A stretch of DNA of 60,650 nucleotides, the filler included, from Polymyxa betae A26-41 (taxonomy: Eukaryota; Protista; Endomyxa: Phytomyxea): assembly GCA_003693705.1 (NCBI GenBank). It is 7 parts of 7 records of this genome, joined end to end, with 100 filler letters (N's around TTAATTAATTAA, not from the genome) between each part and the next. Parts side by side here need not be neighbours in the genome. Positions count along the whole stretch, not along the records: positions 23,530 to 45,192 come from RBZT01000529.1; 6 more parts are not named here. One strand, given 5' to 3'. The notes under the pieces were generated by a model. It did no database searches, was not told the DNA's origin, and saw nothing but the letters and a program-made list of their open reading frames with translations. Position numbers and translations under genes: made by a program. Of this stretch, positions 3,768 to 57,799 are shown one piece after another. Positions within the stretch are counted from its first letter, which is position 1. The number at the start of each line of letters is the position of its first letter.

Positions 3768-5001
3768 TAACTCGTGTTTACATTACCTACCAACAAGAGG
3801 GGGAATACGTATGCCTAGGCCTCTAGGTACACAAATTCACGCATCCAAATGCAATAACCTGATCCATATGGACTGGATTTATGTATGGCCAACGAAGAAA
3901 AACGGGATTCACGAATATCAGTGGAACCTGATTTTGCGCGACGACCTTTCTGGCCTCGTGAAGATAACACCCGCAAAGATCCCTGATACAGAAGTCACGG
4001 TCGACGCACTTATGGAATGGCGTGTTTGGGACCCCGGAGATGTTGGTCTCAGACATGGCGTCGTACTTTGTGTCCGAAACCATGAAGAAATTTGCGCTGA
4101 AGTGTAATGTTACACAGCATCTCACTACAGCGTACGGGCACTATAATAACGGAAGCATCGAAGTGGTGAATAAGTGCTATCTATCGCTGATGAGAGCACT
4201 GCTTTCCGAGTTACGTTGGGACAAGGAATACAGGCCCTGGTTGAATTCCAACCCTGAGCATACGTTGAATCATAGACCGCAGAGCCGACTCAACGGAAAC
4301 GCTCCCATAACAGTGATGACTGGCTTACAGCCAGATAACCCATTAGAAGAAATTTTCAAAAATCCAAAAAATCTTAATTTTATTAAAATAAGAATGTCGA
4401 AAGACCAGATTCAAAAACTGGTAGATGACCTTGAAAGTTAGAAAAAATGCATAAAGAAGTAGAAGAAACGTTTCGGAAGCAACGAGATGCGAAGAAAAGG
4501 ACCGCAAACAAATACCGAAGAGAGCCGAATTTCAGTATCGGCGATTACGTGTTAGTTGGCATAGCGGAGCCCGCTAAAATGTCCGGACGCAAACTTTTCT
4601 TAAAGTGGCGCGGCCCGTACCGAATAGTCGCTACAGAAGACCACTACATATTCGAAGTCGAAAACATCGTGGATTCGCGCAGAAAGTGGATTCACGGAGA
4701 CAGGATACGATTCTACGCAGATGACAAACTTAACGTTACCGAAGAGATAAAAAGTCAGTTTGCACATGATAACGAAAGTTATCAAGTTGAAGACCTTAAC
4801 GGATGCCGTCTGAATGCAGACAGCAACCAGTTAGAATTTTTAGTCGAATGGAGAGGTTTCTCACATGACGAAGACTCATGGGAGCCACTTAAGACTCTAT
4901 ATGAAGATATTCCTGCGAAAGTAGAGAAATATATTAAAAAGTTGAAGTTAGAAGACCACGAACTGGCAGAAGAAGCAGCTGGGTTTCTGAAATCCAATTG
5001 A
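3768..5001 (+). pseudogene. Ty3/Gypsy integrase with GPY/F motif and chromodomain, degraded
   Basis: HMDWI / VSDMASYF / NGSIEVVN (DDE), KWRGPYRIV, FLVEWRGFSHDEDSWEP. Frameshift near 4020 and TAG at 4439-4441. Confidence 0.92.
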
Positions 5002-5549: not shown

Positions 5550-8500
5550 TAGCCCCAAATCACGAAGATCTGAACCCGTAGATCTGCTACACGCTTTATC
5601 TTCCCCAGCATTATATTGACGGGTTCTATAGCTTCCAAGAACACCCGTCGTGACCATTTTTGTTCTCTGCTGGCGCCATTGCCTGTATCCTCGGCAGCTC
5701 TGTTTCCTCATCGTATGAGCAGCCGCAGTCCGGATCATGAATGGATCGATACCATTCTACAAAAGCCATAGGTGCTGGAGTGTCTCCGTTCATAATACAG
5801 AGGGAGGTAAACCATTTTACGGCGGCAAACCAAACGTCGGTTTTGTTGTGGTATGTCTTCACTCTGACTTGGACCATATGGTTGCTGGTCTTCAGAGTTC
5901 TCTTTCTCTCGTATTCACGAGATCGAAATATTTTGCCTCGATGCACAATACGGTTGGTGGTATTGAAGGTGCCTGATGCAGTTGTCGTTAGAAGGTAGGC
6001 AATGCTTCAAAGACGTCACAAGCGAAGTAAATGCATTGACTGTTAGTATTACAGTAATTTTTGTTTGGGTTCCAAATGCAAAAGATAAAGACCAGCTATG
6101 TATTTTACGATATAATAAATATATATTGGAGACAAACTAATCAAATGCTGGTAGTATACCATTAATGTTGTTTGGCTTTTGAAACGTACGAAAGTTAATT
6201 GAAGAGTTATAATTAAAGATATTTAAATCGAGGAAATCAATTTGCGAATGTGAGTGATTAAAACTTAATTTGATGCCAGGAATAAAAGAATTCATGCGAA
6301 CAAATAAGTTCTGTAAATCAGAAATTTGTCCTCGAAATATAATAAATAAATCATCAATGTATCTTCCATAGAATAAAAAGTTGGGTGCAAACTCATTATC
6401 AAAACAATCTAAATAAATATTCGCACAGTGAACTGCTGCGTTGAAACCCATAGCAATACCGTCAGTTTGACGAAAGACCGAAGAACCGTAAAGAAAGAAA
6501 TTATGATCACAAATGAATTGAAGAATTTTTAATTCGAAATGTGGTAAATTTCTGGCAGAAAGAGTTGAATATAAACGGTCTAAGGACATCATGGTGTAAA
6601 GGGAAGAAACGTCAGCAGTAACCAAGAAATCAGAATCGGAAATTGGCAAATTTTCAATTTTTTACAGCAATTAACTTACCGTTAAAGGCCTCCATTAGGG
6701 AATTGTCAAATTCTTTCTCCAACAAATATTGCTTCAGGTGATTCTGATTTTGCAGCCAAAAGTGAACCGGTTTCTGTTCGAGATATGCCATTTTGTGAGG
6801 CCGTGTGAGTTTGGAATTGAAATCAAGAATTGCTCGGCGATAACTTCCAACCTTATGGAACAAATCTTCGTGAAGTCTGCCTGATGGAAAGTGACTAGAT
6901 GCTAGGCTTCTGGCTAGAGAGAGAAGATACCGATCTGCCAATCGTTGATGTTGAAATGAACCTGAGTAATTTGGTCCCGATATTGATCATCATTGACATC
7001 TGCCTCTCCAGATTCGCCAAAAGTCCAGATTCTAGTTGAGCTCTGAGAGAACCGTTCATGAAGTTCTTACCTAAATGGCGGCGTCAGATGTGGCGATAAT
7101 TTGAAAGACGTTCCTGAACCTGAAGCAAGAGATTGCAACTTGTTCTGTGTAATTCCTCATAATGTTGATCGCTTGCCCACGAGTGGCGTGGTTCATCGAT
7201 TTGGCCGGCCTCATGAACCTTTCTCACCAGAAGTTCCAAGACGTGCCTGTTAACGGCCCTAAATCTTCAAATAGGTGGGAAACAATGGGAAGAGCAAAGT
7301 GCATAGGCAGAGTAAGCAGCATGCTTGGCGCTTGCTAAGAACCGATGAGCTGAGATTATTTTTTGTGAATTCTTTACCTCTTCAAACAACGTTAGCGCCT
7401 TAACCTGCATAATGGGCAGATCCGAACGTTTCAATGTGAGACTGAAACATTCAGAAAGCCTGTCAAACAACAAGTATAGAGTCTTTTGAAACCTTCTTGC
7501 AGCATCATCCGAAGCAAACAGTCCCCTAGTCATAAATTTAAACAAGCCGTGAAACAGCAGATGCCATTGAGCGTTTTTGATCAAAAAATTTGACGAGATG
7601 TATGGGTTAAACGGTTCTGGTGATCCTGAACTCATTTTAGGAGATGCAAACGAAGAAAAAGATCTCACTTTCTGGGGCTCTGAGATTTTTCAACCTTATA
7701 GAGATTTCTGCTCGGCTGCCACGCTCCAGAGCCCAAGGCAGGTGCGTGTGATAGTCCCAAATATGGGGAAGCCTACCCAGCTCCTTTTCAGCATCAAGAG
7801 CTTGGTTGTCAAATATTAACCCAGAACCTCCAGACTCAAAATCTAAAGCTATTATGGTTCTTGCAATGTTCTATCACAATTTCGAATAAGAAATATCACA
7901 ATGAGGTATATCATGATCACTTACACCTAGATGATGCATATAATCTGTTTTAAACTGTCAACTTGCATTCCATCCAAATTCAAGGTGATTTGACAAAGCG
8001 TCCACACCATAGACGCCAGATTGCTCGTAAGGATGATGAGGATCCTTTGTTCTGTCATACGGTTTGTATGTGACCACGTTGCGGTCCTGAGCTTTCAGAA
8101 ACGCTTGCATCTTTTCTGCATGCTTTTTCGACTCGTACATGTCTGAAACAACCCCTATGCATGTAATGTTATGTCAACGTCGATGGCGTTGGGTGAACCC
8201 TTTACCTGAGGAATGAATCTCTTCACTTGTGTAGAGACCCGGGGCCTTCGTCATTGAATTCCGCTCGAACAATGAGGGGATCTTCGTCTGGTGGCGCAAA
8301 GGGTTGCTTTCCGGTAAGAACCTGAAAGTACCCAGGCGGCACGAACGTCGGAAACATCTGACCCCTGCTATCTTGCAAATACATGCCCCAGTTTTACTTG
8401 TAGCACCCGTTTTTCTTACCGCTTTAGCCCAAGCGGGCAGATCAGCCATGCTAAACAGCAATTTCATTTTGACCTATGATTTTCTGATATCAAAAGGACA

Positions 8501-23529: not shown

Positions 23530-26500
23530 TTCTCGAGACGAAACCGCTACACCGTGGCGTTTTCATGACGGTATAAGACGCGCCAAGGGCCCGTATTGGG
23601 CGGAAGTAATCGTCTGGATTGGCGTTCCTCCATAACGGGTTCGGCAGCGGATCGGGCGACCCAAACGAGACGGCCTGGCTCCAACTGCAGGTCACGGCGT
23701 TTCACATTAGTCTGCTTTGCTTGCGCCTTGTACGTGGAGGCTGCATTACGCCTCGCCATCTCCCAAGTCGCCTTCAGCCGCGAATTTAGGTTCCGCAACA
23801 ACTGCCGGATTTCATCAGACATCCCGCTCGCCGGAATCTGGACGTTATATCGTGGTGGCCCGCGAAGGTCTCGACCATACTCCATGAAATGGGGCGTTTC
23901 CTTGGTCGTTTCGTTGATTCCCTGCCCGTAGGCAAACTCCAAATATGGAAGTGTACGGTCCCATCGGCGCTTATTATCCTCATCCAATGCCATAAGAAAC
24001 GCGTTCAAATAGCGGTGCGGACGTTCCGCCATGCCATTAGCAGCAGCCCTTTAGGAAACAGTGAAGGCGGTCCGAAATTGGAAGGCATCTCCAAGCGCGG
24101 TCCAAAGATTGTTGCGCCACGTAAGTCCTCGGTCACAAACGATTTTCTCAGGAAAACCCTTCTGTAGGAAGAGTTTTCGGATCAAGACGTCTGCTGCTTC
24201 ACGATCTCGATTTGACCGGAATGAAATGAGTTGCGTGCGTCAAACGGCAAGTAGCTGACAAAACGTGCCGATAACCCTTACTCGTTACAGGAAAATTCTC
24301 CACAAGGTCGACATAGATTACTTGCCAGGGCTCGCTTGCGGCATCCGGATCAAAGAGTTGCCGAAGTCCGTTTGAAGATGATGCAGTCGCCTTGACTTTC
24401 TGACAGGTCTCACAATTTCGGATGTAGTTCGCCACATCTCGCTATATTCCGGGCCAGTACGCCTCTTGTCGCAGGCGGTATAATGTTCGTTTCACTCCAA
24501 AATGGCCTCCTATCAAAGAATCATGAGCACCCTGAAGCCATTCGGTCACATTCGGAACGCAGATTTGTGGTCTCCTTGACTGGCCATTCGTTCGCGGGCG
24601 CCGGTTACGGATGAGGACACCGTTTTCATCGAACTCGAAGTCAGATCGGATGCCGTTCCCAGATCCGCGACTGAAAGCCTCCATAATATCGAACCACATA
24701 GGATCAGCACGTTGTCGATCAACAAGCGAGGCACCGCCCTGTTCGTGTACATCGCTGACGCAGACCACCATAACTCCGAGCTTCGGAACATAATCGTCGC
24801 CACTGTCCGAATCGTTGTCCGAAGTGAGCACGCCCGTCATAGAATGGTCCAGGTTCGGCTCGTCATCATGATGCACGAATTCACAGCGGCTGAGTGCGTC
24901 GGCATTAGAGTTGTCTTCTCATGGTCGGTATCGGATCGTGTAGGCAAAGGGCTCCAACTCTTCCCAGATGCGACAGAACTGCGGATCGTCGGTCTCCTTC
25001 CGAAGAAATTCCTGAGGCCGGTGGTCGGTCTCTATGATGAAAGGACCCCCTCTAGATAACATCGCCAGCGTCGTACTGCCAATCGAATGGCGACGGCCTC
25101 GCCGCGTCTTGCTGAATAATGACGTTCCCGTCCCCGACATTTCTTCGACAGGTACGCGATTGGGTGTTCTTCGCCGTCAGCCGTTCGCTGACTCAATACA
25201 GCACCGAATCCTGCCTGTGAATAATCAGCTTGGACAATAAAAGGTAATGAAAAGTCCGGGTGAGCCAGTACTGGACGTTCCGAGAGTTTTGTCGGAGCGT
25301 TTGGAATGCATGTTGATGGTCGTCCGTCCATTTCCATTCCGCTGTGTTTGCGCTCAGATTGGTCAGAGGAGCCGCGATCATCGCAAAATCGGGAATGAAA
25401 GAATGGTAGTATCCTGCTAGGCCGAGAAACGATTTGAGCTGCTTTTTGTCCGCAGGCACCGGATATTGTTCGACCGCATCAACGAGCCGCTTGTCCGGCC
25501 GAATTCCTTGGTCACTGACGCAATGGCCCAGGTACGTCACCTCCTTTTTTAGAATGAAAGTTTTCTTCGGATTCACCATCAGGTTATGTTCTCGCAACCG
25601 GTTAAAAACCCGGTCCAGTCGCTCCAAGTGATCTAAGAAGGTAGATGAAAACACCACAATATCGTCCATATAGACTAAACAGTCCTAGTTGATTCCTGAA
25701 AGCACTTTGTTCATCAGCCGGCAATAGGTTGCAGGCGCACATTTTAGGCCGAAGGGCATCCGAAAAGGCCGTCGCGCGTCACAAATGCTGTTTTCGGGCG
25801 ATCTTCTTCGGCGACAGAGACTTGCCAGTAGCCTGACGCCATGTCGAAAACCGAAAAATACCTCGTACCTGACATCGCTGCCAGCTGTATCAATCTATAT
25901 TTTCTCCGTTAGTCGCAATAAGTGCGCGACTGCGCTAAGAAGACTGTGGGCAGACTCTTGGACATTCCGTCGGAAGTGATCAGGTCCGGAAGTTGCGTCA
26001 CGGACTGCGGAACTACCTTGGGCCCTGACTCCCTGAAATAATACACAATCGATTCTCAGCACTATCACAGACTCGTTTATTACTACGTAGTGAAGTGCTC
26101 TACAGCGCGTCATCGACTCTCGGTATCGGGTGGGCGTCCATCTCCGTGAGGTCGTTGAGGCGACGGTAATCGATGGCGAACCGATATGTGCCGTCTTTCT
26201 TCTTTGTCAAGACGACTCCGGCGCCCCACGGACTTGTTGACGGTCGAATGTGCCCGTCCTTCAACAATTTTTGAAACAGTTTCCTTAACATACATCTCCA
26301 AGTCCGGATGGCGACGTCGCGGAGGTCCTGATACTGGCTGAGCACCAGGCATGAGCTTGATGACATGTCGTTCTGTAATAGTTTTTCCGAGGGGATTGTT
26401 TTCTGTGCAAAACCTGTCGGCATTCTTCATTAACCATTTCCGCACGAGCCCCTGTTGTTCCGGAGCCAGAGAATCCCAATCGACATTCACTGTTGACAAT

Positions 26501-26956
26501 ACAATTCTCAGATGTGGATCATTCACCCCCAACGTTGGGTCGAATTTCGCGCCTCCGATAGTGATTTCGCAGATCTCGCCGTTGTCTTCTCGAACGGCCT
26601 CCGCTATCACGTCTCCTGGAAGCAGAGTTATCGCCTCATCCGACATGTTCGCCAGCAGTAATCGACACTTCCGATTGCTGAGCTCAATGAGGCCCTCCGC
26701 CACTCTCCCCCTATGTTGACCAACTGCTCGCACTCTCATGACTCCTGTAGTCGCATCGTCAGCGAGGACGTTCGCCAAAACATGATAATTAGGCATCATT
26801 TCCAGTCTTTGTTGCAGTCGAAGACGTACTGGCCCCATAGTGTGGTCCGGTACGCACCACGGAATGAATGTCGGAGGATTGCCAATGTAAACCCCTTTGG
26901 CTACATCGACATGCGCCTGTACTTGCACCAATTTGTCTCGGCCAATGATGACCGGT
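23530..26956 (-). pseudogene. pol: Gypsy pol (RT-RH-IN) with frameshifts and stops
   Basis: Motifs are split over ORFs 26110-26931, 26100-26423, 25193-25669, 25032-25337, 24442-24876, 24199-24435 and 23547-24032. Confidence 0.92.
25886..26104. mobile_element. Solo-LTR-like 219-bp insertion interrupting RT
   Basis: TGTA...TACA termini. It splits the RT sequence VDDAL/AAMSGTRYFSVFD. TSD ambiguous. Confidence 0.7.
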
Positions 26957-27232
26957 NNNNNNNNNNNNNNNNNNNNNNNNNNNNNNNNNNNNNNNNNNNN
27001 NNNNNNNNNNNNNNNNNNNNNNNNNNNNNNNNNNNNNNNNNNNNNNNNNNNNNNNNNNNNNNNNNNNNNNNNNNNNNNNNNNNNNNNNNNNNNNNNNNNN
27101 NNNNNNNNNNNNNNNNNNNNNNGTGCCCCAAACCATCGCGGTCGAATTACAGCAACAGCGGGGAGTCACCGGTTCGTCTCAACAGCACCCTGGGTCCCAG
27201 GGGGTTGGGGCGGCTGTAGCCGTCCCGCGTCC

Positions 27233-28540
27233 TCAGGCCGACGACGACTTGGTCGTGTTGGCCGTGTTGGAAGATCTGGTCGTTGCCGGGCGGGTCGGAC
27301 ATTCGCTCTTGTAATGGCCATGTTCTCGACAGTGCCCGCAAAACGCCTTTTTACGAGCCTTCTCACAATCTCGGAAATCATGATCATTTGTCCGACAAGT
27401 ACGACACTTGTAATTGGACGGTTGAGAAGCCTGGCTCGTACCTTGAGATGCATCCGGAACGTTCGCGTTCACTTTGTGCCTTCGCTTGCCCTCCTGAACC
27501 CGCTCCGCGTAGATACATTCTCTCAAGATCCTGGTCTGATCCCGATAATCCATACCTCTTATACGGTTCTCGAACCCGTATTTACTGTCCAACACCAGTT
27601 TGACGTCCAGTCGTAAGCTTCCACGATAAATGAAATAAACCAGGTCCGGTGTGGCCTTATCCGGCTGATATGTCTGGAAATTATTCAGCGCGGCTTCGAG
27701 TCTAGGTAATAGATCCGTAAGAGTTTCGGTCGGTCCTTGTCTGATCGATAAAGCCGCCTCCTGCCATCGGCCGACCCGGTTAGCTTCAGTCACACCTGCA
27801 ATTCGGTCACGCACATCCACCAGTACAGATTCGTATGTCGAGTCCGGAAACTCGCGCGCGGACGCCTTAATCTGGTTCTGCAGGGTACCGACATGGACCT
27901 TAGTTAAAAGCCAGTGGTGAAGCTGTTGACGATCAATTGATGATTCGGCGCCACGGCAAAGCGCAATAGCCATCTCCAGCCAATCGAGTACAGCTTGGCG
28001 GCCTTTGTCGTCAAAGGGATCCGCTACGCACTGCGGTAATTTTAAAAACGAAATCGCCGACGACTGCGGCTGCACAGGCGATGGCCGGGGCGCGGCCTCC
28101 TCCAAAGCTGGAAGCAATGATCGCACTGAGTTCGGCTGCGGAGTTGAGACCCCGCGGTCCGATGATGACATTGCCGACCCGTCGAGACCGTGATTGCTGA
28201 CATCAGTCCTTTGTCCAGCGCCGTTGCCCGACGCGGGTGCTGGCGACACAACCTCCGATAAATTCGGACGGGCAGCATCTGGCGTTGAATCATTGCGAGC
28301 ATCATGGGCGCCATTCGCGTTCTCCAGTTCGGCTGACGAACCAGACGCCTGAGATACTTGCCTCATCTGTTGTAGCAGCCGTTCTGACAGCGACTCGCTG
28401 AGGGCTGTTATCGCACTCGTCACTGTCGACTGAACCATCTGTGTGACCTGTTCTTGTTGATCGGCTTGCTGTTGACGTAGCTGGTCGAGGTTCTCCTGTA
28501 GATTCGTAAACATATCCATAATATCCTGATTTCTGGTCAT
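27233..28540 (-). CDS. gag: Gypsy Gag, 435 aa
   Basis: Intact ORF with an N-terminal coiled coil, IRQGPTETL motif and CRTCRTNDHDFRDC / CGHCREHGHYKSEC zinc knuckles. Confidence 0.92.
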   Translation of the reverse strand: MTRNQDIMDMFTNLQENLDQLRQQQADQQEQVTQMVQSTVTSAITALSESLSERLLQQMRQVSQASGSSAELENANGAHDARNDSTPDAARPNLSEVVSPAPASGNGAGQRTDVSNHGLDGSAMSSSDRGVSTPQPNSVRSLLPALEEAAPRPSPVQPQSSAISFLKLPQCVADPFDDKGRQAVLDWLEMAIALCRGAESSIDRQQLHHWLLTKVHVGTLQNQIKASAREFPDSTYESVLVDVRDRIAGVTEANRVGRWQEAALSIRQGPTETLTDLLPRLEAALNNFQTYQPDKATPDLVYFIYRGSLRLDVKLVLDSKYGFENRIRGMDYRDQTRILRECIYAERVQEGKRRHKVNANVPDASQGTSQASQPSNYKCRTCRTNDHDFRDCEKARKKAFCGHCREHGHYKSECPTRPATTRSSNTANTTKSSSA

Positions 28541-28577
28541 GGTAATAGTTCACACCCCGATAATAGAATCGGATTTG

Positions 28578-28783
28578 TGTAACGTATTTCAGCTGGGGCT
28601 GGTAGGTTTTTAGCTGGAACACGAATTCCACTAGGAAAGTTGGTGAAATCGAATTGGTAGTAATAAATCCGATTCTATTATGAATAAACACAGCAGACAC
28701 ATTCTCGCTACGAACGCCGTGGATGTCGTGACTCAGCCTCGTTGATGGTCAGGTCGTACTGGACCGGACTGGGAGTCACGACA
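28578..28783 (-). repeat. 5' LTR (~206 bp) of the Gypsy element
   Basis: Minus strand TGTCGTG...GTTACA. Host-gene sequence resumes at 28784. The gag ATG lies 38 nt downstream. Confidence 0.8.
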
Positions 28784-29837
28784 GCAGCCAGTCAGAAAAG
28801 AGATACGCCTCATTGACTCTCTTAGTAAAATCCCCTCTAAAAACGGACGATTTCGGAGAGAGAGCTTGCAGCTCTTTGTCATTCGGTTCTTTGTGCTGAG
28901 GAACCATTCATTACACGCAGCATAATAACAAATAGGAGTTATGTTACCAGAAACTGACATAGACTATCATAGTCTGTAACATTAACAGCATCATGATGTA
29001 AAAAATTGTCCAAATTGGAAAACATTCGTGATACTCTGTATCGAGCTCGTTTCCTTTTCACACCTTTGTGAGAAGGTCCCTGATAGGAAACCATCAGTAA
29101 GAGCTCAGCAGATATTAATAATGGATGACATTATCTATTTCATTCTGCAGACAATATTCCGAAGCTGAAGCTGAAGCAGATCCCGGAATTACTTCTAAAA
29201 CTTGTTGATTTTCTGATAAAATAGCGGGCTGGAATGATATGTTAATAGGATCCAATAATGTTGGATTTTCAGAGCAGAACTCCTACATAAAAAGTTCAGT
29301 TTTGTAAAAGCAACGCATTGAATCACATCATACAATACGATTCGATAATGTATCATGGAACTCCTATATAGTTTGATTAGCCTGAGATATCATCAGAATA
29401 CAGCCGGTCTTACACTCAAAACAGAGGTTCCGCCTTCAGCACTATCATTCATCTCGCCTTCAGCCCCATCATTCATCTCGCCTTCAGCCCCATCATTCAT
29501 CTCGCCTTCAGCACCATCATTCATCTCGCCTTCAGCACCATCATTCATCTCCACTTCAGCACCATCATTCATCTCCAGGAAATTGCTGACTTCATTGTAA
29601 TGCTGATCTGGGTTTGATAAAAACATAAAAGAATCTTGAACGGGTCGGATATCAATGTCAATCAGCAGCTAAACATTTCCACTAAATAATCCGCTACTTG
29701 CGACAGATACAGACGGACGAGCTGACCTCTGACGGATGATCATCCGCACTGTTCATGAATCGCCCCATAATGGTCTCATCAGGGTTGGTGGCGTCGCATG
29801 TGACCAGTATCACGAGGAAGGTCCACGAAGAAAACAT
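28784..29837 (-). pseudogene. Secreted Cys-domain family, copy 1 (5' half, interrupted by Gypsy)
   Basis: MFSSWTFLVILVTCDA signal exon. Later VTDYDSLCQFL|HKEPNDKELQALS matches the copy at 35822-37983. Confidence 0.8.
29433..29576. repeat. Coding minisatellite, 6 x 24 bp (EMNDGAEG)
   Basis: ccttcagc(a/c)ccatcattcatctcg repeated in tandem. Confidence 0.95.
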
Positions 29838-35821: not shown

Positions 35822-37983
35822 TTAGTTCATTTCTGGCATTTCAGTTGTCATTTGACATAGAGCTGGACATTGTTCTGACAATCCAGAACAATATTTCTGT
35901 CGGAATTGATCGTGGTCGATTTGATCTCCGAAAGTCTTGACAAAAAGCTCCACATCGTTATTAAAATGATATTGAAGGCAGCTCATTATGGGATTCACAA
36001 TATTAGTCATATAAGCGAGTAAACCGGAGGAACATTTCACCTTTTGTTGCTGAACTTGATCTGACAGGACTCGAATACAGTGAAGAAACGTCTTCTGAGA
36101 GATATTCAAAATCCAACAAAACCATTCGAAGTTATATCATACTGTTTGAAACCCTTTGATTTGATATCTAAGTAAACAATCATAGAGATTGTCGTGAACA
36201 GAATCTCGAACAAACTGGATACCACCAAGACCATTGGTCTCTGCAATTTGCTTTTCAAATCCACAAAGTGAACCTTCATTGATGTTGTGGGAACATTTGT
36301 CATGAAATTTGGAATGTGGAAATGGGCTTCTCCATCGAGACTGACAAGTTTTCAGATCTTTCTTGCAGCAGATAATGAGACAGCATAAAATCGGGACACA
36401 ACGAGCCTCCCATCCCAGTTACAACCATTTCTAGTCCATCCGTCCTCGCGAGCCCATACAAATTTCTTATATAAGCTGCAGATTAAAATGAGCTTCTGCA
36501 AAGTATTCGTAGCTTGAGAAATTTCACTGGTTTCTGTCAATTCCATCTCGACACCTTTAACTTGAATAATCAACGGATTGCTGGAGCCAGAAACCGCTTC
36601 ATTTCTACTTATGCAAAATGGCGGGTCTGTGAGGAACGCGCGTTCTTCGGCATCAGGCATTTTGTTCTGCAGAGAATTTAATAAGCACAAAGAAGAGCGA
36701 ATCCGAAACCTACCAGAAAGAAGCAGAGGCTGTCGTAGTCCGTGATATCGTTATCGAAGTTCAGTACCCTCTGCAAATATTGTTTTCGTTTTCGGCCTGA
36801 TTCAAAATGCAGCAATCGGCGGCGTTTCCGGGATTCTGTATCCGTGAGAGCAACATTCGTATCAGTTTCTGTAACAGGACGCTTTACAGGAAGCAGAGAT
36901 TTTAGAGGAGAGTGATTCTGGGTCTGGATATATCCACATTTACCTCCGGAGCATTTCACAATGAATTGAGAATGCGAGAACGGATTTCCCGAAATGGACT
37001 GGAACATCTCGAGATCTTTCGAGCAGCAATGTATGAGACAGCGAAATACTGGAACACAGACACCGTTCATCCAGTCATTCATAGATCGATTGCATTTCAA
37101 TAGGTCGCGACGAAGCGTCCGGATTGCGGTTAGTTTCCGATACAAACTGGCTATTAATATGAGCTTTTGTAATGTGCTCTTAGACAGAGCGATCTCCGTG
37201 ATTTCATGTATGAAAATATTGGTGCCATTCAGATCCACTGTTAATGGCTTCTTGACTCTTTTGGTATAATCCACTCTACAGCGGGAAGATTGCTGTGAGA
37301 GAGCTTGCAGCTCTTTGGCATTCGGCTCCTTGTTCTGAGAAACCATTTAATACAGCAGACTTCTGATAGAATTTGTTTTTACCAGAAACTGACATAGACT
37401 ATCATAGTCTGTAATATCAGCAATATTATGATTCAGAAGAAAGTCCAGATTCGATCGCGGAAATGATTCTGTTAATTGTTGCTCTGCAGGACGTGGAGCA
37501 GTTGATGTGTGAATAGAACCCCCTAAAGACAGATTTTCGTTGCAGAAATCCTGAAAAGAAAATTTCAGTCAAGAAATGGGCAACATGCTGCATCACATCA
37601 TACAGAGGAATTTGATAACGTCTCATATGGCTCCTGAACAGTATAATTTAGCCTGAGATATTCGCAGGATACAGCCCGTCTTACATTCAAATCGAAAGCG
37701 TGAGGGGAAGAACTTCGTCTTTCACTACCGATCTGGTCCAGGATATTCTGGACCTGATTGTGATGGAAAAGAGGCTGATTATCTGTATCTTGAGCTGGTC
37801 GGATATCAATGCCGCTCAATAACTATCCATTTCCCATTAATGACGAATCGACGGCTTATACAGAACGAACGAGCTTACCTCGGCTGGCTGCTCCATCGGA
37901 CTATTAATAAATTGCCCCATAAAGGTCTCATTGGTAGCGTCGCATATCAGCAGTATGACGAGGAAGATGCAGGAAGAAAGCAT
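35822..37983 (-). CDS. Secreted Cys-domain family, copy 2 (most complete, ~7 exons, one +1 frameshift near 36413)
   Basis: MLSSCIFLVILLICDA signal, ~50-nt phase-0 introns, two DYDSLCxFL|NKxP motifs, three LQKL..PV..CL..(C/H)..D...F...G..F.H..F...C units (third partial), RKRRR and RKRK motifs. Confidence 0.8.
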
Positions 37984-40749: not shown

Positions 40750-43000
40750 TTCATTTGGTGTGGCCTAGCGATTGTCATCCTGATCCTGAGCCTATCTGAG
40801 TGCTTATCTACATACAGCTCTTCGCCTGGTAATGTTACATTCACTCTGGAACCGCCCCCTGATACGGTCTGTCCTCTCGCCCTCCCTACTACAGACACCA
40901 GAGTAACGTTATTCTGTCAGAAACATGTCACATCTCTTTATCATGCATTATAGGAACCGATACTCTATGATCCATATCCTATACATGATTTCTCGGATCT
41001 TCCCGATTTTAATAACCTCTTTGATCCCTTATTTGATCTGGATGTAGATTTTCTTGTATGAAATGATTATATAACTGGGATATTATGAAATTAATGAATA
41101 TTCAGATACTCAATGAGAATGAAATTCCTGAAACGATGGATATTCCACCTGATATGGGAAATTTATCATCATCAACATCTTTATTTCACCTTACAGATAA
41201 TGTTCCGGATTTACGTTCTATTCAGGAAACTACAAATGTAATGTTTCCTTATCAAGTCTCATGCCTTAGATTTCTCTAAGATTTTTCGTAATCAGAATGA
41301 TGAACCAGTTGAAACTATTTCCCGGAAACGTCCTCGTATTGAGGAGACATCATCGGCAGCCGACCTTCAGTATTCCTTCAATCATAATGTGAATGATATC
41401 AATGATTATAACAGTCTCTGCAAGTTTCTGGTGAGTTTTGAGCAGCCTTTCTGTCCGGCTGTATAATAACTGTAGATTAGATCAAAGAGCCGAATAATGA
41501 GGAACTTCAGTTTCTGTCTTCAGGGTTCAATGGTGATGCAGGTCAATGCTCCAAGATCAACTCTCAATTAGTTATTAATGTGAAAGGACATGATCTGGAT
41601 CTGAGCGAAATCAAACGAATCCGTTCTGCTCAGAGCACATTACAGAAACTGATTCTGATTGCGAATTTGTATCGGAAATTGATCTGGGCCTCCCGAAAGT
41701 ACGGATGGTTTTGGAACCAAGTTGATGGGAAAATACGAAATTGGATGTATATTGTGTGTCGTCCTGTATTGAGATGTGTCATGGAATGCTGTCAGAAAGA
41801 TCTCCGGAGATTTCAGATACTCTGGGGGAATCCCTTCAAACATTACCTTTACTTTGAGAAACGTTCCGGACATGAATGCCAATCCAAATTGTCCGCTGCC
41901 GATCACTCTACGAATCAGGTCCCAGATGGCTCTTTTGTCACTCCTCGTCTTCAGAGTGCCAACAAACCGTCCGTCAAACGGAGGAAATTGAGTTCTTCAT
42001 CAAAGAAGCTCGCTCAGTCCGTGTCTAACTATGTTCCTGATTTGATGAAATTGTGTGATTTTGGTGTGAACAAGATCACAGACTACACAACTCTGTGTGC
42101 TTTTCTGGTGAGATTTATTCTATTTAAATGCGGAATCTCACATTGAAACTTTCATTCAGAAAAAACAGCCTGATAATGACGAGTACGCATTTCTTACTTA
42201 TACGAACATATTTTTCCCATCAAAAGGGAGCAGAAAAAAGCCAAACGACCCCACTATTATCACAGTTCTCAATGATCAGATCATATTGACGGAAACCTCG
42301 GAATTTTCGGTTTCCAAGACCACTTTAGAGAAGTAGATATTGGCGGCCAGTTTATGTATGAAACTGGTTCGAGCCAAGATTACCGACCCGAAATTGAGTC
42401 TGAGACGTGAAGGCTGTGGTGATTGGCTCTATCGTGTGTGTTACCCTGTATTTTCATGTATTACAATATGCTGTAAGAATGATCTTCGAATTTTTCAATC
42501 TCGATGGGGAAATCCGTTTCCTCATAGCCGTTTCGTGGAGCTTTGTTCTAGGCAAAATGGCAAGAGTAATCAGTGCGGATTTGAGACTCTCATTGTCAGG
42601 GACAATGAGAGATATTCCATCGAATCACAACTAGTTCGTGATAGAAGAGACCCTTCTCATTGTGTATTGAGATATTCGATGATAGGATTCGAGACGGTAC
42701 TACTGTGTTCAAGGAAATTCGTATTTTCTAAATATATCACAGAAGCTCATATTGGAGTGTGTTCAGCGAATGTTTAATTCCCTGAAGAAGCAGAATTTGA
42801 TTCCATCATCTGATCTGAGTGAATATCTCGGAGATTCTCTAAATTCAATATTATACTGTCTTGAACATCATTGTAATAATGATGTTGAATATTTCACTCA
42901 TATATTTGGACATTATATAGATCATTATCAATTTCGGCAGAATCACTGTCCTGGACATTCTGGACACTGTCCTGCTCAATCTGCTCTTCATGCTGCTTAA
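40750..43000 (+). pseudogene. Secreted Cys-domain family, copy 3
   Basis: Hydrophobic leader LAIVILILSLSECLS, STLQKLILIANLYRKL..RPVLRCVMECCQKDL..WGNPF, second and third units to 43000. Damaged start and TAG near 42335. Confidence 0.8.
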
Positions 43001-45958: not shown

Positions 45959-47069
45959 ATGGTTTTCCAAGCGGTTCCCTTCCTGATACTGTGCCTATCA
46001 CAGTGCTTGGCTACATTCAGTTCTAATGATGCAGACTGTCTCGAACAGACTCATGTTGGTGTCTCTCTTCCCGACCTTCAGATTATAGACACAGCAGTAA
46101 TATTGATCTGTTAGAACGAAAGCTTCATCTTTTCAACATGCATTATAGGAGCCCATTCACCATAATTCATATTCAATTGAATATAACTCGGATCTTCCCT
46201 ATTCCAATAACATCTTTGATCCCTCATATAATCTGGATGCAGATTTTAATGTATGAAATGATTATAACTTTCAGATTATGAAATTGATTTATTCTTCAGA
46301 TATTCACTGAGAATGACATGTTGGCCACTCCACCTGATGTTGGAACATTAACATCTTTATTACACCATTCAGATAATGTTACAGATTTACCTCATATTCA
46401 GGAATCTATCAATGTAATGTTTCATTTTCAAGTGTCCTCTCTTAGACCTCGCTGAGATTGTCATCATCAGATTGATGGACAAAATCTTCTTACAGACTAT
46501 ATGAATGAGACTCATGTTACTGTCTCTCCTCTCGGCTTCCACGTTACAGACACCACAGTAGCATTGTTTTGTCAGAAAGAAATCACATTTCTCTAACATG
46601 ATTATTATAGGAACCGATTCTCTATGATTCATATTTAATCCAAAATTACTCGGATCGTTCCGATATTAACAACTGCACAGATTTTACCTTTGATTTTAAC
46701 GTGGATGTAGATTTTAATGTATGGAATGATTATATATCTGTTATCGTATCAAATTCATTTCTTTTTCAGATATTCAATGAGAGTGAAATTCATGAAACAT
46801 CGGACACCCCGCCTCATATTGGAACGTTATCAACATCAGCATCTTTATTACATCATACAGATAATGTTTTGGATCTACCTTCTATTGAGGAAACTATACA
46901 TGTAATGTTTCATTATCAAGTTTTCATCTCTTCAAATTCTCTGAGACTTTCTTTATCAGAATGATGAGCCAATTGAAACTCCCAGAAACGTCCTCGTATT
47001 AACGAGACATTATCTCCAACCGACCTTCTGTATTCCTTCAATCAGGATGAGACTGATATTAATGATTAT
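45959..47069 (+). pseudogene. Secreted family, copy 5 (5' part with duplicated exon block, cut by the YR element)
   Basis: MVFQAVPFLILCLSQCLA signal. Exons homologous to 40800-41410. Homology stops at aatgattat (47069). Confidence 0.8.
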
Positions 47070-47108
47070 TTTCAACAACCTCGTCAGCGCGAAAAGTATA
47101 CAGCAAAA

Positions 47109-49113
47109 ATGATAGGTTCCACCACCTTTCCACCACGTTCCACCAGTTCCACCACCGCAATCCCGAGAGTGCGTGGGGGTGCCACTCAGGAGGCTGTGCC
47201 CGCGTCTGTGTCTCGTAGGCACGAAATTGAAATGCCGTTCAAAATGGAATCAATGCGTCGCAAGCGAGGTCGCGCTACCAGACTTGTGATTACCGAGGCC
47301 ATGCAGGAGAAAGCCCAAGAAGAAGTCGAAAAATTGCTGCAAATCATGCAGTTGGTGCATGGAGGGCGGCGCTCGTTGACTGGCCGTCGCGTTTTGAAAG
47401 ATCTGAGCAAAGCCCAATACTCGTGTCATTTCAAATCGCTTCAAGATTTTGTAATTATTATAGGTGATTGGCAATCGTTAATCATGCTATCCGAGGATGC
47501 ACCAGAAGGATTCTGCCCTTCAATTAGTGCGGATTCCATTTGTTCATTCATCAAATGGAAAACAGAACCTGCAGGAGAGCCCATAACATCACGATCCGGT
47601 AACCGCCTTTTAACTTGTTTTACTAACTGTGAGATCCTAGCAAGCTGCTCCTGGAAAGCTCCTATTAATTTAACCCCGTTCTTCTCCGCAATTTCATGCC
47701 TTCACCAGCATCGCTATCAAACCGGAGCGTATGAAGAACCATGCAGTAACTGTTGGGATTCTTTCCGACGTGATGAGAAGATAGGTTGCCTTCATCATCT
47801 TGGAAAGCCTCGTCTCTTCACGCAAGGTAATGTCTGCCTGTCTTTACAGGTTGTGGACTGTGTAAAATAGGGGCGAGCAGATCGTGAAGGGTACCGCGCT
47901 CAAGGAGACTCCCCATTGTCTCCTGATGAGCTGATGAGATTGCGAAAGCATTTATTGTCAGAAAATACATTAGATGGGTGGCAAGAATATGTGCATATTC
48001 TATTTGACATTAAGCTCTTCCTACGAGACGGAGAAGCAGCCGAATTCGGGATCGGCGAGTGCCGATTCATACGAGAATTGACTACTTTTGACATTGAAGG
48101 CGTGGCATCTATGGTAGCTGTTCGTGTGAAAGGAAAATCGGACAAAGAACCAGTCACATTATGCATTTGGAGAGATGATGATATTCCTGAACTGTGCCTT
48201 CTACGCCACCTTCTCGCGTATGTTCATCTTGCTGGAATTAAAGAAGGTCAGCTGTTATTTCCTGATTTAGACAACCGCGACATTCCGATCCCATATTCCA
48301 CTTTCAATTTTCGTTTGAAGAAGTTATTTCTTAAAGTGACCGGCCGCCATGGACCCTGGGGTACACATTCATTACGAAAAACTGCATACCTACTAGCATC
48401 ATGGTGTGGAGCCAGTGATTTAGAACTGATGGCGTCCACAAGACATAAATCTCATGACGTCAGTCTAAGATACAAGAAGGATTCACTTACGTTGCTGGAG
48501 ATCACCAAGAACAACGGGTAAATTTTTTGCAAAATATTTATGTGGGAGTTGATGGCTGATTCAATTTTCGTAGCAATCAGCTAATGATATCGCAACCAAC
48601 TTGGCGACCAATATTCGTTGAGCACCTACAGCTAGCTGTTTCGCTAAACATCAACTCGGGATCTAGTGACAAGCCGAATGAAAGGCTGGCTTCTGATTTT
48701 GTGAGATATATGACTCGTAAGAATGTTATCACCCAAAGTCAAACACATAATGCCGCTGCATTGGAAAATGCAATTTTACGTCACTTGTTTTCAAGGACGA
48801 TCGCTGCAGAGCTCACAAGTCTGATTTCTCAGATAGTTTGTCCAGATTTGCATCAAAAACTGCAGTGTGTGGTTGGGCGAGCTATTTCAGCCGCGCATGG
48901 TTCGGACATTGTATAGAACGACACAACAGAGAGTGCCCCGGCCCCGGCAATTCCAGAGCATCAACCAGAAGTCGTGACAGTAAGAATAAGGCGAACTATA
49001 TTTATATCATAATGTATTTAACACTATAATAAGCAGGATCGCCGGGAGAAGAGAATGCGCCGTGAAGGAGAGTTCGACGTTCAGGAAAGAGAACTGATCG
49101 GGAAATGTACCAA
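47109..49113 (+). mobile_element. Tyrosine-recombinase (Crypton-like) transposase gene, spliced, two in-frame TAGs, truncated by contig end
   Basis: FLRDGE (R), VKGKSD (K), HSLRK (HxxR), RHKS (H), LRYKKD (Y). Introns 48518-48573 and 48980-49036 restore the frame. Confidence 0.88.
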
Positions 49114-50472: not shown

Positions 50473-50544
50473 GGCTTAGTGGTCTAGTGGCATGATTCCC
50501 TGTTAGGGTCGGGGAGGTCCCGGTTTCGATTACCGGCTGAGCCC
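50473..50544 (+). tRNA. tRNA-Pro(AGG)
   Basis: Cloverleaf GGCTTAG/CTGAGCC, anticodon loop TTAGGGT, T-run terminator. Confidence 0.93.
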
Positions 50545-54475: not shown

Positions 54476-55265
54476 CGCATCCAGTGGCCAGCCAGCGACC
54501 AGCACGATCAGCGACGGGGGGGACCCGATCAATCGATAGACGGGGGGGCTGGCGGGGCGCGGACAGCGCACTTTTTCCGCCCTGGAGCGGCCTCTCACGG
54601 AAACCGTTCCAAGGCCAGGCTGATCGCTACGTTCGCCATGGGCTTGCACCGCCCGCCCAGGGCATTCTGGGTTCAGCACGACCACGTCCCTCGGGCTGGG
54701 GTCGTACTGCTCCGCGCATGCTGCAGCTTTGACCGGCTGGATTGAAATTGGGTCTTTGTTGCGAGGCGGATTCGATCCGCTGTGTCTCTCTCAATACGAT
54801 GATCATGACATAGACCGGGTTGCAGCGTGATTTTGTTTCAGATGGGATTCGAGAGATTGTTGCGCTCTTTTTGCTTTCGCCGGCCTGAGCTGAACTCAGG
54901 ATGATGTGGATGTCTGCTGAATTTTATGGAATCGCATAATTTCAGGTATTGTTTAGGAACTCTCCATTTCATCTGCGCTATTGACTGGATCAGCGTACAA
55001 TTTGCGGTCAGTATCATTGTAGAAGTCCGATCGCAGTCGAGGATCGAAAAAGTTAATGCTTGTGCACTTCATCAATTTCTACAACTAATAAAGTGATAAA
55101 CGATTGCGAGAAACTGAATCTTTCTATCACAATGCTTGGATAGGTCGTGGCAGTACAGTACCCAAAATGTTGGTTATGGGGGATCTAAAGAGCCTTCGCA
55201 CATAGTCTGCCGACGTGCCGACTAATATGGTCGTGCTGCGTGACCTCTTAGGGAAAAAAAATGAG

Positions 55266-55337
55266 AGGAGCCACTGGGATTTGAACCCAGGACCTGAGGA
55301 TCTGCAATCCTCCGCTCTGCCACTGAGCTATAACTCC
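55266..55337 (-). tRNA. tRNA-Cys(GCA)
   Basis: Minus-strand cloverleaf, anticodon arm GAGGA-TTGCAGA-TCCTC, T8 terminator. Confidence 0.95.
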
Positions 55338-56829: not shown

Positions 56830-57799
56830 TCTTAAAAACCGGTTCTCCTACTATATTGATTGCATGATTTCAGAGCTCAATCTTTCGCTAAGAGTTGCTG
56901 ATCGTTGATCCGATCCCCAAAAATCTCGATAAAACTGTCCACATCGTCATCACACAGATCTTGAAGGCATTTCAATAAGGGATTGACAACGTCATTAAGA
57001 TATTGCAGAAGATCTTTCGAACAATCCAACTTCATCAGCTGAACTTGATCTCGAAGGGCGCGAATGCAGACCAGAAATGATGTCTGTAACAATTTGAAAA
57101 AAGCCATCGAAATCAGTCATCCGATTACCGTCTGAAATCTCTGAATTTGATATTTAAGAAGGCAATCAAAAGCGCCGTCCGAATCTGGAACGAACTTTAA
57201 TGCTTTTGAGCCAATATGGCGCTCAATCGTTCGTTCAAAGCCGCAGATCGACACGGTCTCATCCTTACGATAACATTGAAGGTGAAACTTCGAATGGGAG
57301 AACGGACTTCCCCATCGCGAATGAAACATTCGCAGATCCTTCTTACAGCAGTTAGTGAGACATAATAGGACAGGCACGCAGGTATGAGACAGCAGATAGT
57401 AAAGGAGCGTTTTCCATCCCCGAAACCCGGCGTAAAAGGAACCTTGCTGTATATGCGGACCACGAGAATCAGTTTCTGCAGCGTGTTCGTGGCCTTCGCG
57501 AGCTCCGAAATCTCGTTCAAGACCACCGCGGTGTTATTCACGAAAACTGTTAAAGGTTCTTCATTGCGGCGATCAGTTCGGGTGATATTGGGCCGCGTCC
57601 AACGACTATCTGTGAGGAAATCGAACTCTTCCGGATTCGGTTTTTTGTTCTAAATTAAAAAAAAAAACTTATTAACGAGCTCAGCGCTGAACGAATAAAC
57701 TTACAAGAAACAGACAGAGGCTTTCGTAGCTATCAACGTCCACCTCGAAATTTAGCAAAGCGTTCAGATGTGTCATTTTCTGAATTAAGGAAAATCGCT
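56830..57799 (-). pseudogene. Secreted Cys-domain family, copy 6 (3' half)
   Basis: SYESLCLFL|NKKPNPEEFDFL, TNTLQKLILV, PVLLCLTNCCKKDLRMFHSRWGSPFSHSKF, VVNPLLKCLQ. Frameshifted. Confidence 0.82.

What the first reader, a model, noticed from the sequence alone, without database searches (positions are those of the whole stretch)
28560..28681. Ty3/Gypsy element with a self-complementary primer site instead of a tRNA PBS
Seen: on the element strand the LTR end (..GTTACA) is followed after 1 nt by AAATCCGATTCTATTAT (28576-28560), not by TGG. This 17-mer is the perfect complement of ATAATAGAATCGGATTT in mid-LTR (28681-28665), whose first A sits in an initiator-like TTCA context. Established: Tf1/sushi-group elements prime by annealing the transcript's 5' end to the PBS. 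Inference: this element self-primes with a 17-bp duplex. Its two-knuckle Gag and long PR-RT spacer do not look Tf1-like, so this could be an independent origin.
Basis: partly seen in the sequence, partly recalled or inferred. Interest (0 to 1): 0.75.

Follow-up and report, generated by a model that had tools for sequence, protein, structure and literature searches.

The report
Self-priming retrotransposon in a protist lineage
A broken jumping gene whose capsid protein has relatives in plant-parasitic protists lacks the usual tRNA landing site and instead carries 17 letters that pair perfectly with its own end-repeat, so it likely starts copying itself with a piece of its own RNA, as fission-yeast Tf1 does, although it appears not to belong to Tf1's group.

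Summary
Observation confirmed. One base after the LTR end, 28576-28560 is the exact complement of 28681-28665; none of 5000 shuffles exceeded 13 bases. Contig ends in public runs fix the LTR at 28812-28578 (235 bp); one contig implies a 4-bp target duplication. The element is a dead Ty3/Gypsy copy; its named Gag relatives come from Plasmodiophora and Spongospora. Self-priming is the best reading (about 0.7) but inferred: no transcription start was mapped, no compensatory change seen, and the host tRNA set was unavailable. 'Independent origin' is unproven. Nesting in the sampled chromodomain group is rejected (p 5e-7), yet the best tree makes it an unsupported sister of core chromoviruses (72/70), with no named Tf1/sushi sequence present. 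The long PR-RT spacer also occurs in chromodomain elements. Self-priming outside Tf1/sushi is already predicted in print (copia TAR), and this scan noted it before on other DNA (animal Gypsy, BEL, diatom copia). New here: a probably rhizarian lineage, a 17-bp rather than 11-bp duplex, a 4-bp duplication.

The parts
28578..28812 (-). 5' LTR, 235 bp, TGAGGCGTAT...ATACGTTACA
   Evidence: Loose contig ends at 28578 and 28812 in runs X1, X4, X5, X12, X13; a 235-nt contig spanning exactly this stretch; sequence
28682..28812 (-). Predicted U3 (131 nt, 54% GC); holds most of the located differences of diverged copies
   Evidence: X12 record 1: 3 of 3 differences here; X13 record 9: 6 of 7 located differences here, 5 of its 12 not located. 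The boundary is inferred
28665..28681 (-). Predicted self-primer, 17 nt, at the predicted 5' end of the RNA; contains the LTR's only poly(A)-signal-like hexamer found (AATAGA, 28679)
28624..28650 (-). Predicted hairpin inside the loop (8 bp)
   Evidence: prediction only
28583..28623 (-). Predicted U5 stem-loop (11 bp) ending 6 nt before the primer site
   Evidence: prediction only
28560..28576 (-). Primer-binding site, 17 nt, 1 nt after the LTR, no TGG
   Evidence: 0 differences over 28500-28607 in contigs of runs X5 and X8
27233..28540 (-). gag, 435 aa, open, two CCHC knuckles; its ATG is the first one after the predicted start, 20 nt after the primer site
   Evidence: Atlas look-alikes Retrotrans_gag/Ty3_capsid at 0.94; 26 relatives at E<=1e-3, three named from Plasmodiophora brassicae and Spongospora subterranea
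23547..27468 (-). pol in the order (PR)-spacer-RT-RNase H-IN, in another frame than gag and overlapping its end; broken by several frameshifts and stops; protease region in an N gap (26957-27122); IN end cut by the gap at 23430-23529
   Evidence: (RVT_1, RT_RNaseH, Integrase_H2C2)
25886..26104 (.). 219-bp insertion with TG...CA ends inside RT, probably a solo LTR of another family
   Evidence: gap in RT alignments; ends and flanks
28813..28816 (-). One copy of a 4-bp target-site duplication (TCAA on the element strand)
   Evidence: X13 record 10 carries the LTR 3' end followed by the same 4 bases and then the continuation of the host repeat (29 of 30 letters match the empty paralog); a 5-bp duplication does not fit
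37252..37454 (-). Uninterrupted paralog of the host repeat into which the element inserted (77% identical to 28813-29019)

Best explanation
This is the 5' end of a dead Ty3/Gypsy LTR retrotransposon whose primer site pairs over 17 bases with its own LTR, and the family likely primes reverse transcription with the first 17 bases of its own RNA instead of a tRNA. Shown: the LTR ends, the 1-nt spacer, the absence of TGG, the perfect 17-bp complement, and gag followed by a broken pol. Inferred from Tf1: transcription would start at about 28681; the 5' end would fold back onto the primer site across an 88-nt loop holding two predicted hairpins; the element's RNase H would cut after base 17 to give a 3'-OH; RT would then copy U5 and R into minus-strand strong-stop DNA. 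The lineage is a deep Ty3/Gypsy branch, probably of phytomyxid protists (Rhizaria), judged from Gag relatives only. It is not nested in the chromodomain groups I could sample. Whether it invented self-priming or shares it by descent with chromoviruses is unresolved (about even).
For: 17 of 17 complement, 0 of 5000 shuffles above 13. Position 1 nt after an LTR end fixed independently by contig ends. Meets the published self-primer criterion. Both halves show no difference wherever contigs let me see them: primer in X5 record 10 and X1 record 2, site in X5 record 5 and X8 record 13; no listed variant row falls in either 17-mer. A 91-nt soil contig (X17, depth 3.8) is identical over 28646-28684 and diverges just upstream, 3 nt before the predicted start. 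GC drops from 54% to 38% at the same point, and the Gag ATG is the first ATG only for a start below 28702. A U5 stem next to the site is predicted. The Tf1 mechanism (first 11 bases pair with the PBS, RNase H cuts between 11 and 12) is from PMC7175516, passage.
Against: No transcription start was mapped. No compensatory change was seen: the visible copies are near-identical, so their agreement may be recent common descent. A second family differs at 5 of 45 letters over 28554-28598 and I cannot say whether any fall in the site. 15 variant rows were not shown. The outer duplex of the Tf1 'pretzel' is weak here (pairing probability 0.3-0.4). No TATA box, and the initiator match is of a kind found 4-10 times in this LTR. 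Only 3 host tRNAs could be compared (longest complement 5 nt). 17 bp is longer than Tf1's 11, so the cleavage step may differ.
Confidence: 0.72

Rival explanations
1. The duplex is regulatory rather than a primer. It would hide the poly(A)-signal-like AATAGA in the 5' LTR, or gate translation of gag, while priming happens some other way. This role could also coexist with self-priming.
For: The only poly(A)-signal-like hexamer found in the LTR lies inside the 17-mer, and only the 5' LTR has a partner for it downstream. The Gag ATG is 20 nt after the duplex. The lead came from scan note e1-7857539, which I did not check.
Against: It leaves the element without a primer: no TGG follows the LTR. 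The pairing begins exactly where minus-strand synthesis must start. Poly(A) signals of this host are unknown to me.
Confidence: 0.12
2. A host RNA is the primer (a tRNA fragment, or the oligo-U 3' end of a Pol III transcript), and the LTR copy is a captured or coincidental duplicate.
For: The primer strand ends in UUU, as Pol III transcripts do (recalled). Half-tRNA priming exists in Ty1/copia. The host tRNA set is not available.
Against: It needs a second explanation for a perfect 17-bp copy in the LTR. The three tRNAs in the window match 5 nt at most. No Rfam match at E<=5 in 28450-28850 (weak for 17 nt). None of 24 tRNA genes in 120 unrelated metagenome loci overlaps the 17-mer (weak).
Confidence: 0.07
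3. The primer is the element's own 17-mer but comes from the 3' LTR copy (R region), or from a second RNA molecule, not from the capped 5' end.
For: Both LTRs carry the 17-mer, and the start site is not mapped.
Against: A 5'-end fold-back needs only an 88-nt loop and is the dominant predicted fold. It is the mechanism shown for Tf1.
Confidence: 0.08
4. On origin (separate from mechanism): self-priming was inherited from an ancestor shared with chromoviruses, so this is an early-branching relative of Tf1/sushi and not an independent invention.
For: The best RT-RH-IN tree puts it sister to the core chromoviruses (72/70; 71/70). The LTR 3' end CGTTACA fits the sushi motif CNTNACA as well as the rGmr1 motif CGTNACA, and the same paper suggests hairpin priming may be ancestral (PMC3601003, passages). 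Long PR-RT spacers occur in chromodomain elements.
Against: That placement is unsupported and the branch is long. Grouping with the Gmr1-order pair is not rejected (p 0.089). The target duplication is 4 bp, against 5 bp in 100% of 1500 Tcn1 elements and in the Tosmo copies. Most plant chromovirus clades use tRNAs. The IN C-terminal piece has no SH3_Tf2-1 match.
Confidence: 0.45

Closest known systems
Tf1/Tf2 (Schizosaccharomyces pombe), Tj1, Tosmo1-3 and the Tf1/sushi chromoviruses, including plant Tcn1
   Same: Ty3/Gypsy domain order; no tRNA-type site; primer site right after the 5' LTR is complementary to mid-LTR sequence; predicted U5 stem beside it; LTR 3' motif fits CNTNACA.
   Different: 17-bp instead of Tf1's 11-bp duplex; weak outer pretzel duplex; 4-bp instead of 5-bp target duplication; two CCHC knuckles; not nested in the sampled chromodomain group; chromodomain untestable (gap).
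TAR lineage of plant Ty1/copia (Houba, Osr-1)
   Same: Self-priming predicted from LTR-PBS complementarity outside Tf1/sushi: 89% of 203 elements. It is the published precedent for a separate origin.
   Different: Other superfamily (IN before RT), plant hosts, 5-bp duplication.
Dictyostelid Skipper and DGLT-A
   Same: Protist Ty3/Gypsy elements with CCHC Gag and no identified tRNA primer (PMC5006619, passages).
   Different: Skipper has a polypyrimidine tract with no complement in its LTR; DGLT-A has a TGG site.
Phytomyxid Gag-like proteins (P. brassicae CEO95364.1 and XXQ36609.1; S. subterranea CRZ03987.1)
   Same: 32-36% identity to this Gag; the XXQ36609.1 protein has the same paired knuckles.
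   Different: Their LTRs and primer sites could not be read here.

Membership tests
Ty3/Gypsy LTR retrotransposons | LTR with TG...CA ends | tested here: met
   235-bp LTR from contig ends; the 3' LTR itself is not in the window
Ty3/Gypsy LTR retrotransposons | gag, then pol with RT-RNase H before integrase | tested here: met
   nearest solved RT is Ty3 4ol8, E 9e-21
tRNA-primed LTR elements | TGG and complement to a tRNA 3' end 0-5 nt after the LTR | tested here: not met
   no TGG; only 3 host tRNAs compared
Tf1/sushi group | Primer site complementary (10 bp or more) to the 5' LTR | tested here: met
   17 of 17; criterion
Tf1/sushi group | Primer is the 5' end of the transcript | not testable with these tools
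   no RNA holder listed; only contigs were laid; indirect hints
Tf1/sushi group | Three-duplex 'pretzel' around the primer site | tested here: inconclusive
   U5 stem predicted; outer duplex probability 0.3-0.4; the folding model cannot draw the pseudoknot
Tf1/sushi group | Chromodomain at the integrase C-terminus | not testable with these tools
   the sequence ends in an N gap shortly after the GPY/F-like motif
Tf1/sushi group | 5-bp target-site duplication | tested here: not met
   4 bp from one contig of depth 3.6 (X13 record 10); 5 bp in Tcn1 and Tosmo
Tf1/sushi group | RT-RH-IN nests within the chromovirus clade | tested here: inconclusive
   nesting with sampled chromodomain elements rejected (p 3e-4; 5e-7); sister position unsupported 72/70; no named Tf1/sushi sequence in the trees
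Gmr1-type Gypsy elements | Integrase before RT | tested here: not met
   IN follows RNase H, although grouping with the Gmr1-order pair is not rejected

The most novel reading that the evidence does not exclude
A rhizarian Ty3/Gypsy lineage with no chromovirus ancestry invented self-priming on its own. It uses a 17-nt primer, close to the length of a retroviral tRNA site, that also masks its own poly(A) signal in the 5' LTR. With TAR copia and the scan's animal, BEL and diatom cases, this would make loss of tRNA priming a recurrent, easy transition in LTR elements.
Probability: 0.3. Interest if true: 0.68.

Novelty: new variant of a known kind. Interest (0 to 1): 0.45.

Why it matters
How LTR elements prime is used to classify them, and whether self-priming is ancestral or keeps re-evolving is open (PMC3601003 suggests ancestral; PMC6317226 finds it in two unrelated plant lineages). 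A deep branch from a poorly sampled eukaryote supergroup bears on that question either way. As sister to chromoviruses it would push self-priming back to their common ancestor; as a separate branch it would add an origin. A 17-bp duplex also asks whether RNase H cleavage can make primers longer than Tf1's 11 nt. The value is limited because this copy is dead, the mechanism is known from Tf1, and the evidence is one family without covariation.

Tried and rejected
No whole genome is held, so family copies and host tRNAs could not be mined. Word-index homologue searches with Gag found nothing. Viral-contig scans with the RT piece and six Gag alignments found no relative. The RT-alignment scan gave 8 distant circular elements (RT 35-42% identical), none close in the tree. 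Two of the 8 show a self-complement after a CA (L128 14 nt, largely a palindrome; L125 10 nt); their LTR ends are unknown, so I do not count them. The metagenome scan with Gag alignment A9 found none. The 17-mer scan returned 120 loci from 31 of 64 parts; none has a tblastn match to Gag or RT, so all were treated as chance. A structure model of the PR-RT spacer failed (pLDDT 35), so my recalled idea that it is dUTPase-like is untested; its Atlas look-alikes are unnamed oomycete and mollusc clusters. An AU test under the mixture model did not finish; AU results come from LG+G4 on 25 and 29 rows after dropping 16 and 20 of the 41 rows. My first guess that the LTR began near 28981 was rejected by contig ends. 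Similarity between this LTR and the nested insert is marginal (9 of 500 shuffles as good). Chance as the cause of the 17-mer was rejected. Scan look-ups by place and sequence gave nothing.

Full report
Observation. On the minus strand the window reads ..CGTTACA C AAATCCGATTCTATTAT CGGGG.. with the 17-mer at 28576-28560, and its exact complement at 28681-28665. These are the only exact copies in the window. In 5000 dinucleotide shuffles of the LTR the best complement starting 0-5 nt after the LTR end reached 13 once and never more. Using every gap-free window position on both strands as a mock LTR end, no other match exceeds 13. The region folds with z -4.8, 0 of 200 shuffles as good. The feature is real and not chance.

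LTR boundaries. The window holds no 3' LTR; the element runs into an N gap at 23430-23529, and no genome is held. I laid contigs of 8 of the 24 listed public runs. Contigs break away at 28578 and at 28812 into differing flanks, and run X1 has a 235-nt contig covering exactly 28578-28812. So the LTR is 235 bp and multi-copy, the spacer is 1 nt, and the 17-mer is at LTR position 132-148. The stretch above 28812 is a different host repeat, whose uninterrupted paralog lies at 37252-37454. One contig (X13 record 10, depth 3.6) joins the LTR 3' end to the continuation of that repeat, with 4 bases duplicated; 29 of the 30 letters shown match the empty paralog, and a 5-bp duplication does not fit. That contig also appears to share the window's rarer letter at 28644, so it is probably the other end of the same insertion. 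The 4-bp figure rests on this one contig.

The element. gag (28540-27233, 435 aa) is open and has two CCHC knuckles. Pfam does not name it, but Atlas look-alikes are Retrotrans_gag/Ty3 capsid clusters at 0.94. pol has RT, RNase H and integrase in Ty3/Gypsy order, broken by frameshifts, stops and a 219-bp TG...CA insertion in RT. This copy is dead. A full HMMER search gave 26 Gag relatives. I looked up 13 of them; three carry an organism name: two from Plasmodiophora brassicae and one from Spongospora subterranea. The lineage, and probably the host, is therefore phytomyxid (Rhizaria). This is an inference from Gag alone.

Mechanism. Tf1 pairs the first 11 bases of its RNA with the primer site, and RNase H cuts between bases 11 and 12 (PMC7175516, passage). 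Neumann et al. call a self-primer when 10 bp or more starting 0-5 bp after the LTR are complementary to it (PMC6317226, passage); this element has 17. Indirect support for a start near 28681: a soil contig of 91 nt is identical over 28646-28684 and diverges upstream (X17 record 4, depth 3.8); located differences of diverged copies fall mostly upstream (3 of 3 in X12 record 1; 6 of 7 located, of 12, in X13 record 9); GC falls from 54% to 38%; and the Gag ATG is the first ATG only for a start below 28702. Against, or missing: no TATA box, and the initiator-like context is common in this LTR. No RNA was examined. The outer duplex of the pretzel described for Tf1/sushi (bioRxiv 2022.12.06.519325, passages) is weak (0.3-0.4). 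No compensatory change was seen: visible copies are identical in both 17-mers, which recent descent would also give. A second family, seen in runs X1, X5 and X8, has another Gag start and 5 differences over 28554-28598 that the tool did not locate. Tables were cut (15 variant rows), and differences near contig ends are not listed. tRNA priming is unlikely (no TGG; 5 nt at most against the 3 tRNAs) but not excluded. The only poly(A)-signal-like hexamer found in the LTR lies in the 17-mer, so the duplex may also, or instead, mask it in the 5' LTR. I put 5'-end self-priming at 0.72.

Lineage. RT relatives are 53% identical at best (120 of 180 hits listed). In an RT-RH tree of 94 rows (quick tree) and RT-RH-IN trees of 41, 25 and 29 rows the element is a long branch in no strongly supported group. 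AU tests under LG+G4: nesting with chromodomain elements P0095/P0091 rejected (p 0.0003), and with the four-row group that adds L127 and L128 rejected (p 5e-7); grouping with animal-type non-chromodomain elements borderline (p 0.043); grouping with the Gmr1-order pair not rejected (p 0.089); sister to the eight core chromovirus rows is the best tree at 72/70. The groups were named after I had seen the trees, the mixture-model test did not finish, and no named Tf1/sushi sequence was available; chromovirus rows were recognised by Pfam domains and a few plant labels. The 4-bp duplication differs from the 5 bp of Tcn1 (100% of 1500) and Tosmo, but Galadriel chromoviruses have 4 bp in 38% of cases. 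The chromodomain cannot be tested. So it works like Tf1 but should not be filed as Tf1/sushi; independent origin and shared ancestry are about even.

Novelty. Self-priming is predicted in print for Tcn1 and, separately, for copia TAR. Eight literature searches listed no paper whose title or abstract start describes it in Rhizaria; the library lacks most subscription papers, and Repbase entries are not searchable. What I saw: passages of PMC6317226 plus its supplementary table file 3 whole; passages of PMC4600332, PMC5006619, PMC2864245, PMC3601003, PMC5341516, PMC7175516, PMC11042837 and bioRxiv 10.64898/2026.10.14.759018; passages and part 1 of 2 of section 28 of bioRxiv 2022.12.06.519325. 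[quoted passage not shown] Two of the seven PMC6317226 supplements were not among the five held as text, and bioRxiv supplements were not seen; per-element primer lengths there could show whether 17 bp is unusual. This scan has noted self-complementary primer sites before in animal Gypsy, BEL/Pao and diatom copia elements (unchecked notes, 61 findings hold the words). I could not test whether this element belongs to the animal Gypsy clade they describe.

Verdict. Real feature, probable self-priming, in a probably rhizarian Ty3/Gypsy branch, with a longer duplex and a shorter target duplication than Tf1. New variant of a known kind; interest 0.45.

Noticed in passing
window 25886-26104: 219-bp insertion in RT with TG...CA ends, probably a solo LTR of another family; the flanks fit only a 2-bp duplication, or 4 bp if the terminal TG is counted in it.
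   Followed up: partly
window 3770-5001 (+): Fragment of a second Gypsy family: integrase-like ORFs ending in a Pfam chromodomain (E 2.5e-11); its 5' part is behind a gap. So the host also carries chromodomain-bearing elements.
   Followed up: partly
window 6137-6661 (-): RT fragment (RVT_1) whose motifs look to me like Penelope or DIRS type (recalled).
   Followed up: no
window 46977-48916 (+): ORFs with a tyrosine-recombinase-like motif run (HSLRKT...RH...Y), possibly a Crypton-type transposon (recalled); no Pfam hit at E<=0.01.
   Followed up: no
window 36352-37454, 41481-42146, 42337-42777, 57117-57649, 28813-29020: A dispersed host gene or repeat family with related ORFs; no Pfam match for the member tested. 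The element inserted into one member.
   Followed up: partly
window 22013-22085, 50473-50544, 55265-55337: tRNA-Ile, -Pro and -Cys genes; tRNA-Ile lies about 1.4 kb beyond the gap that cuts the element, so targeting cannot be judged.
   Followed up: no
run X7 record 19, window 28528-28558: A copy with a 31-nt deletion that removes the Gag start but leaves the primer site in place.
   Followed up: no
runs X1, X4, X5, window 28694-28810: A related LTR (13 differences) that matches only the U3 part and then diverges, 13 nt before the predicted start: a truncated copy or a family with another R-U5.
   Followed up: no
window 15629-16766 (-) and 17849-18697 (-): Alpha/beta-hydrolase-type genes (PF09994 and DUF900).
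   Followed up: no
L128 about 209 nt before its Gag-like ORF; L125: Self-complement after a CA in two unrelated circular Gypsy contigs (14 nt, largely palindromic; 10 nt); L128 groups with chromodomain elements.
   Followed up: partly
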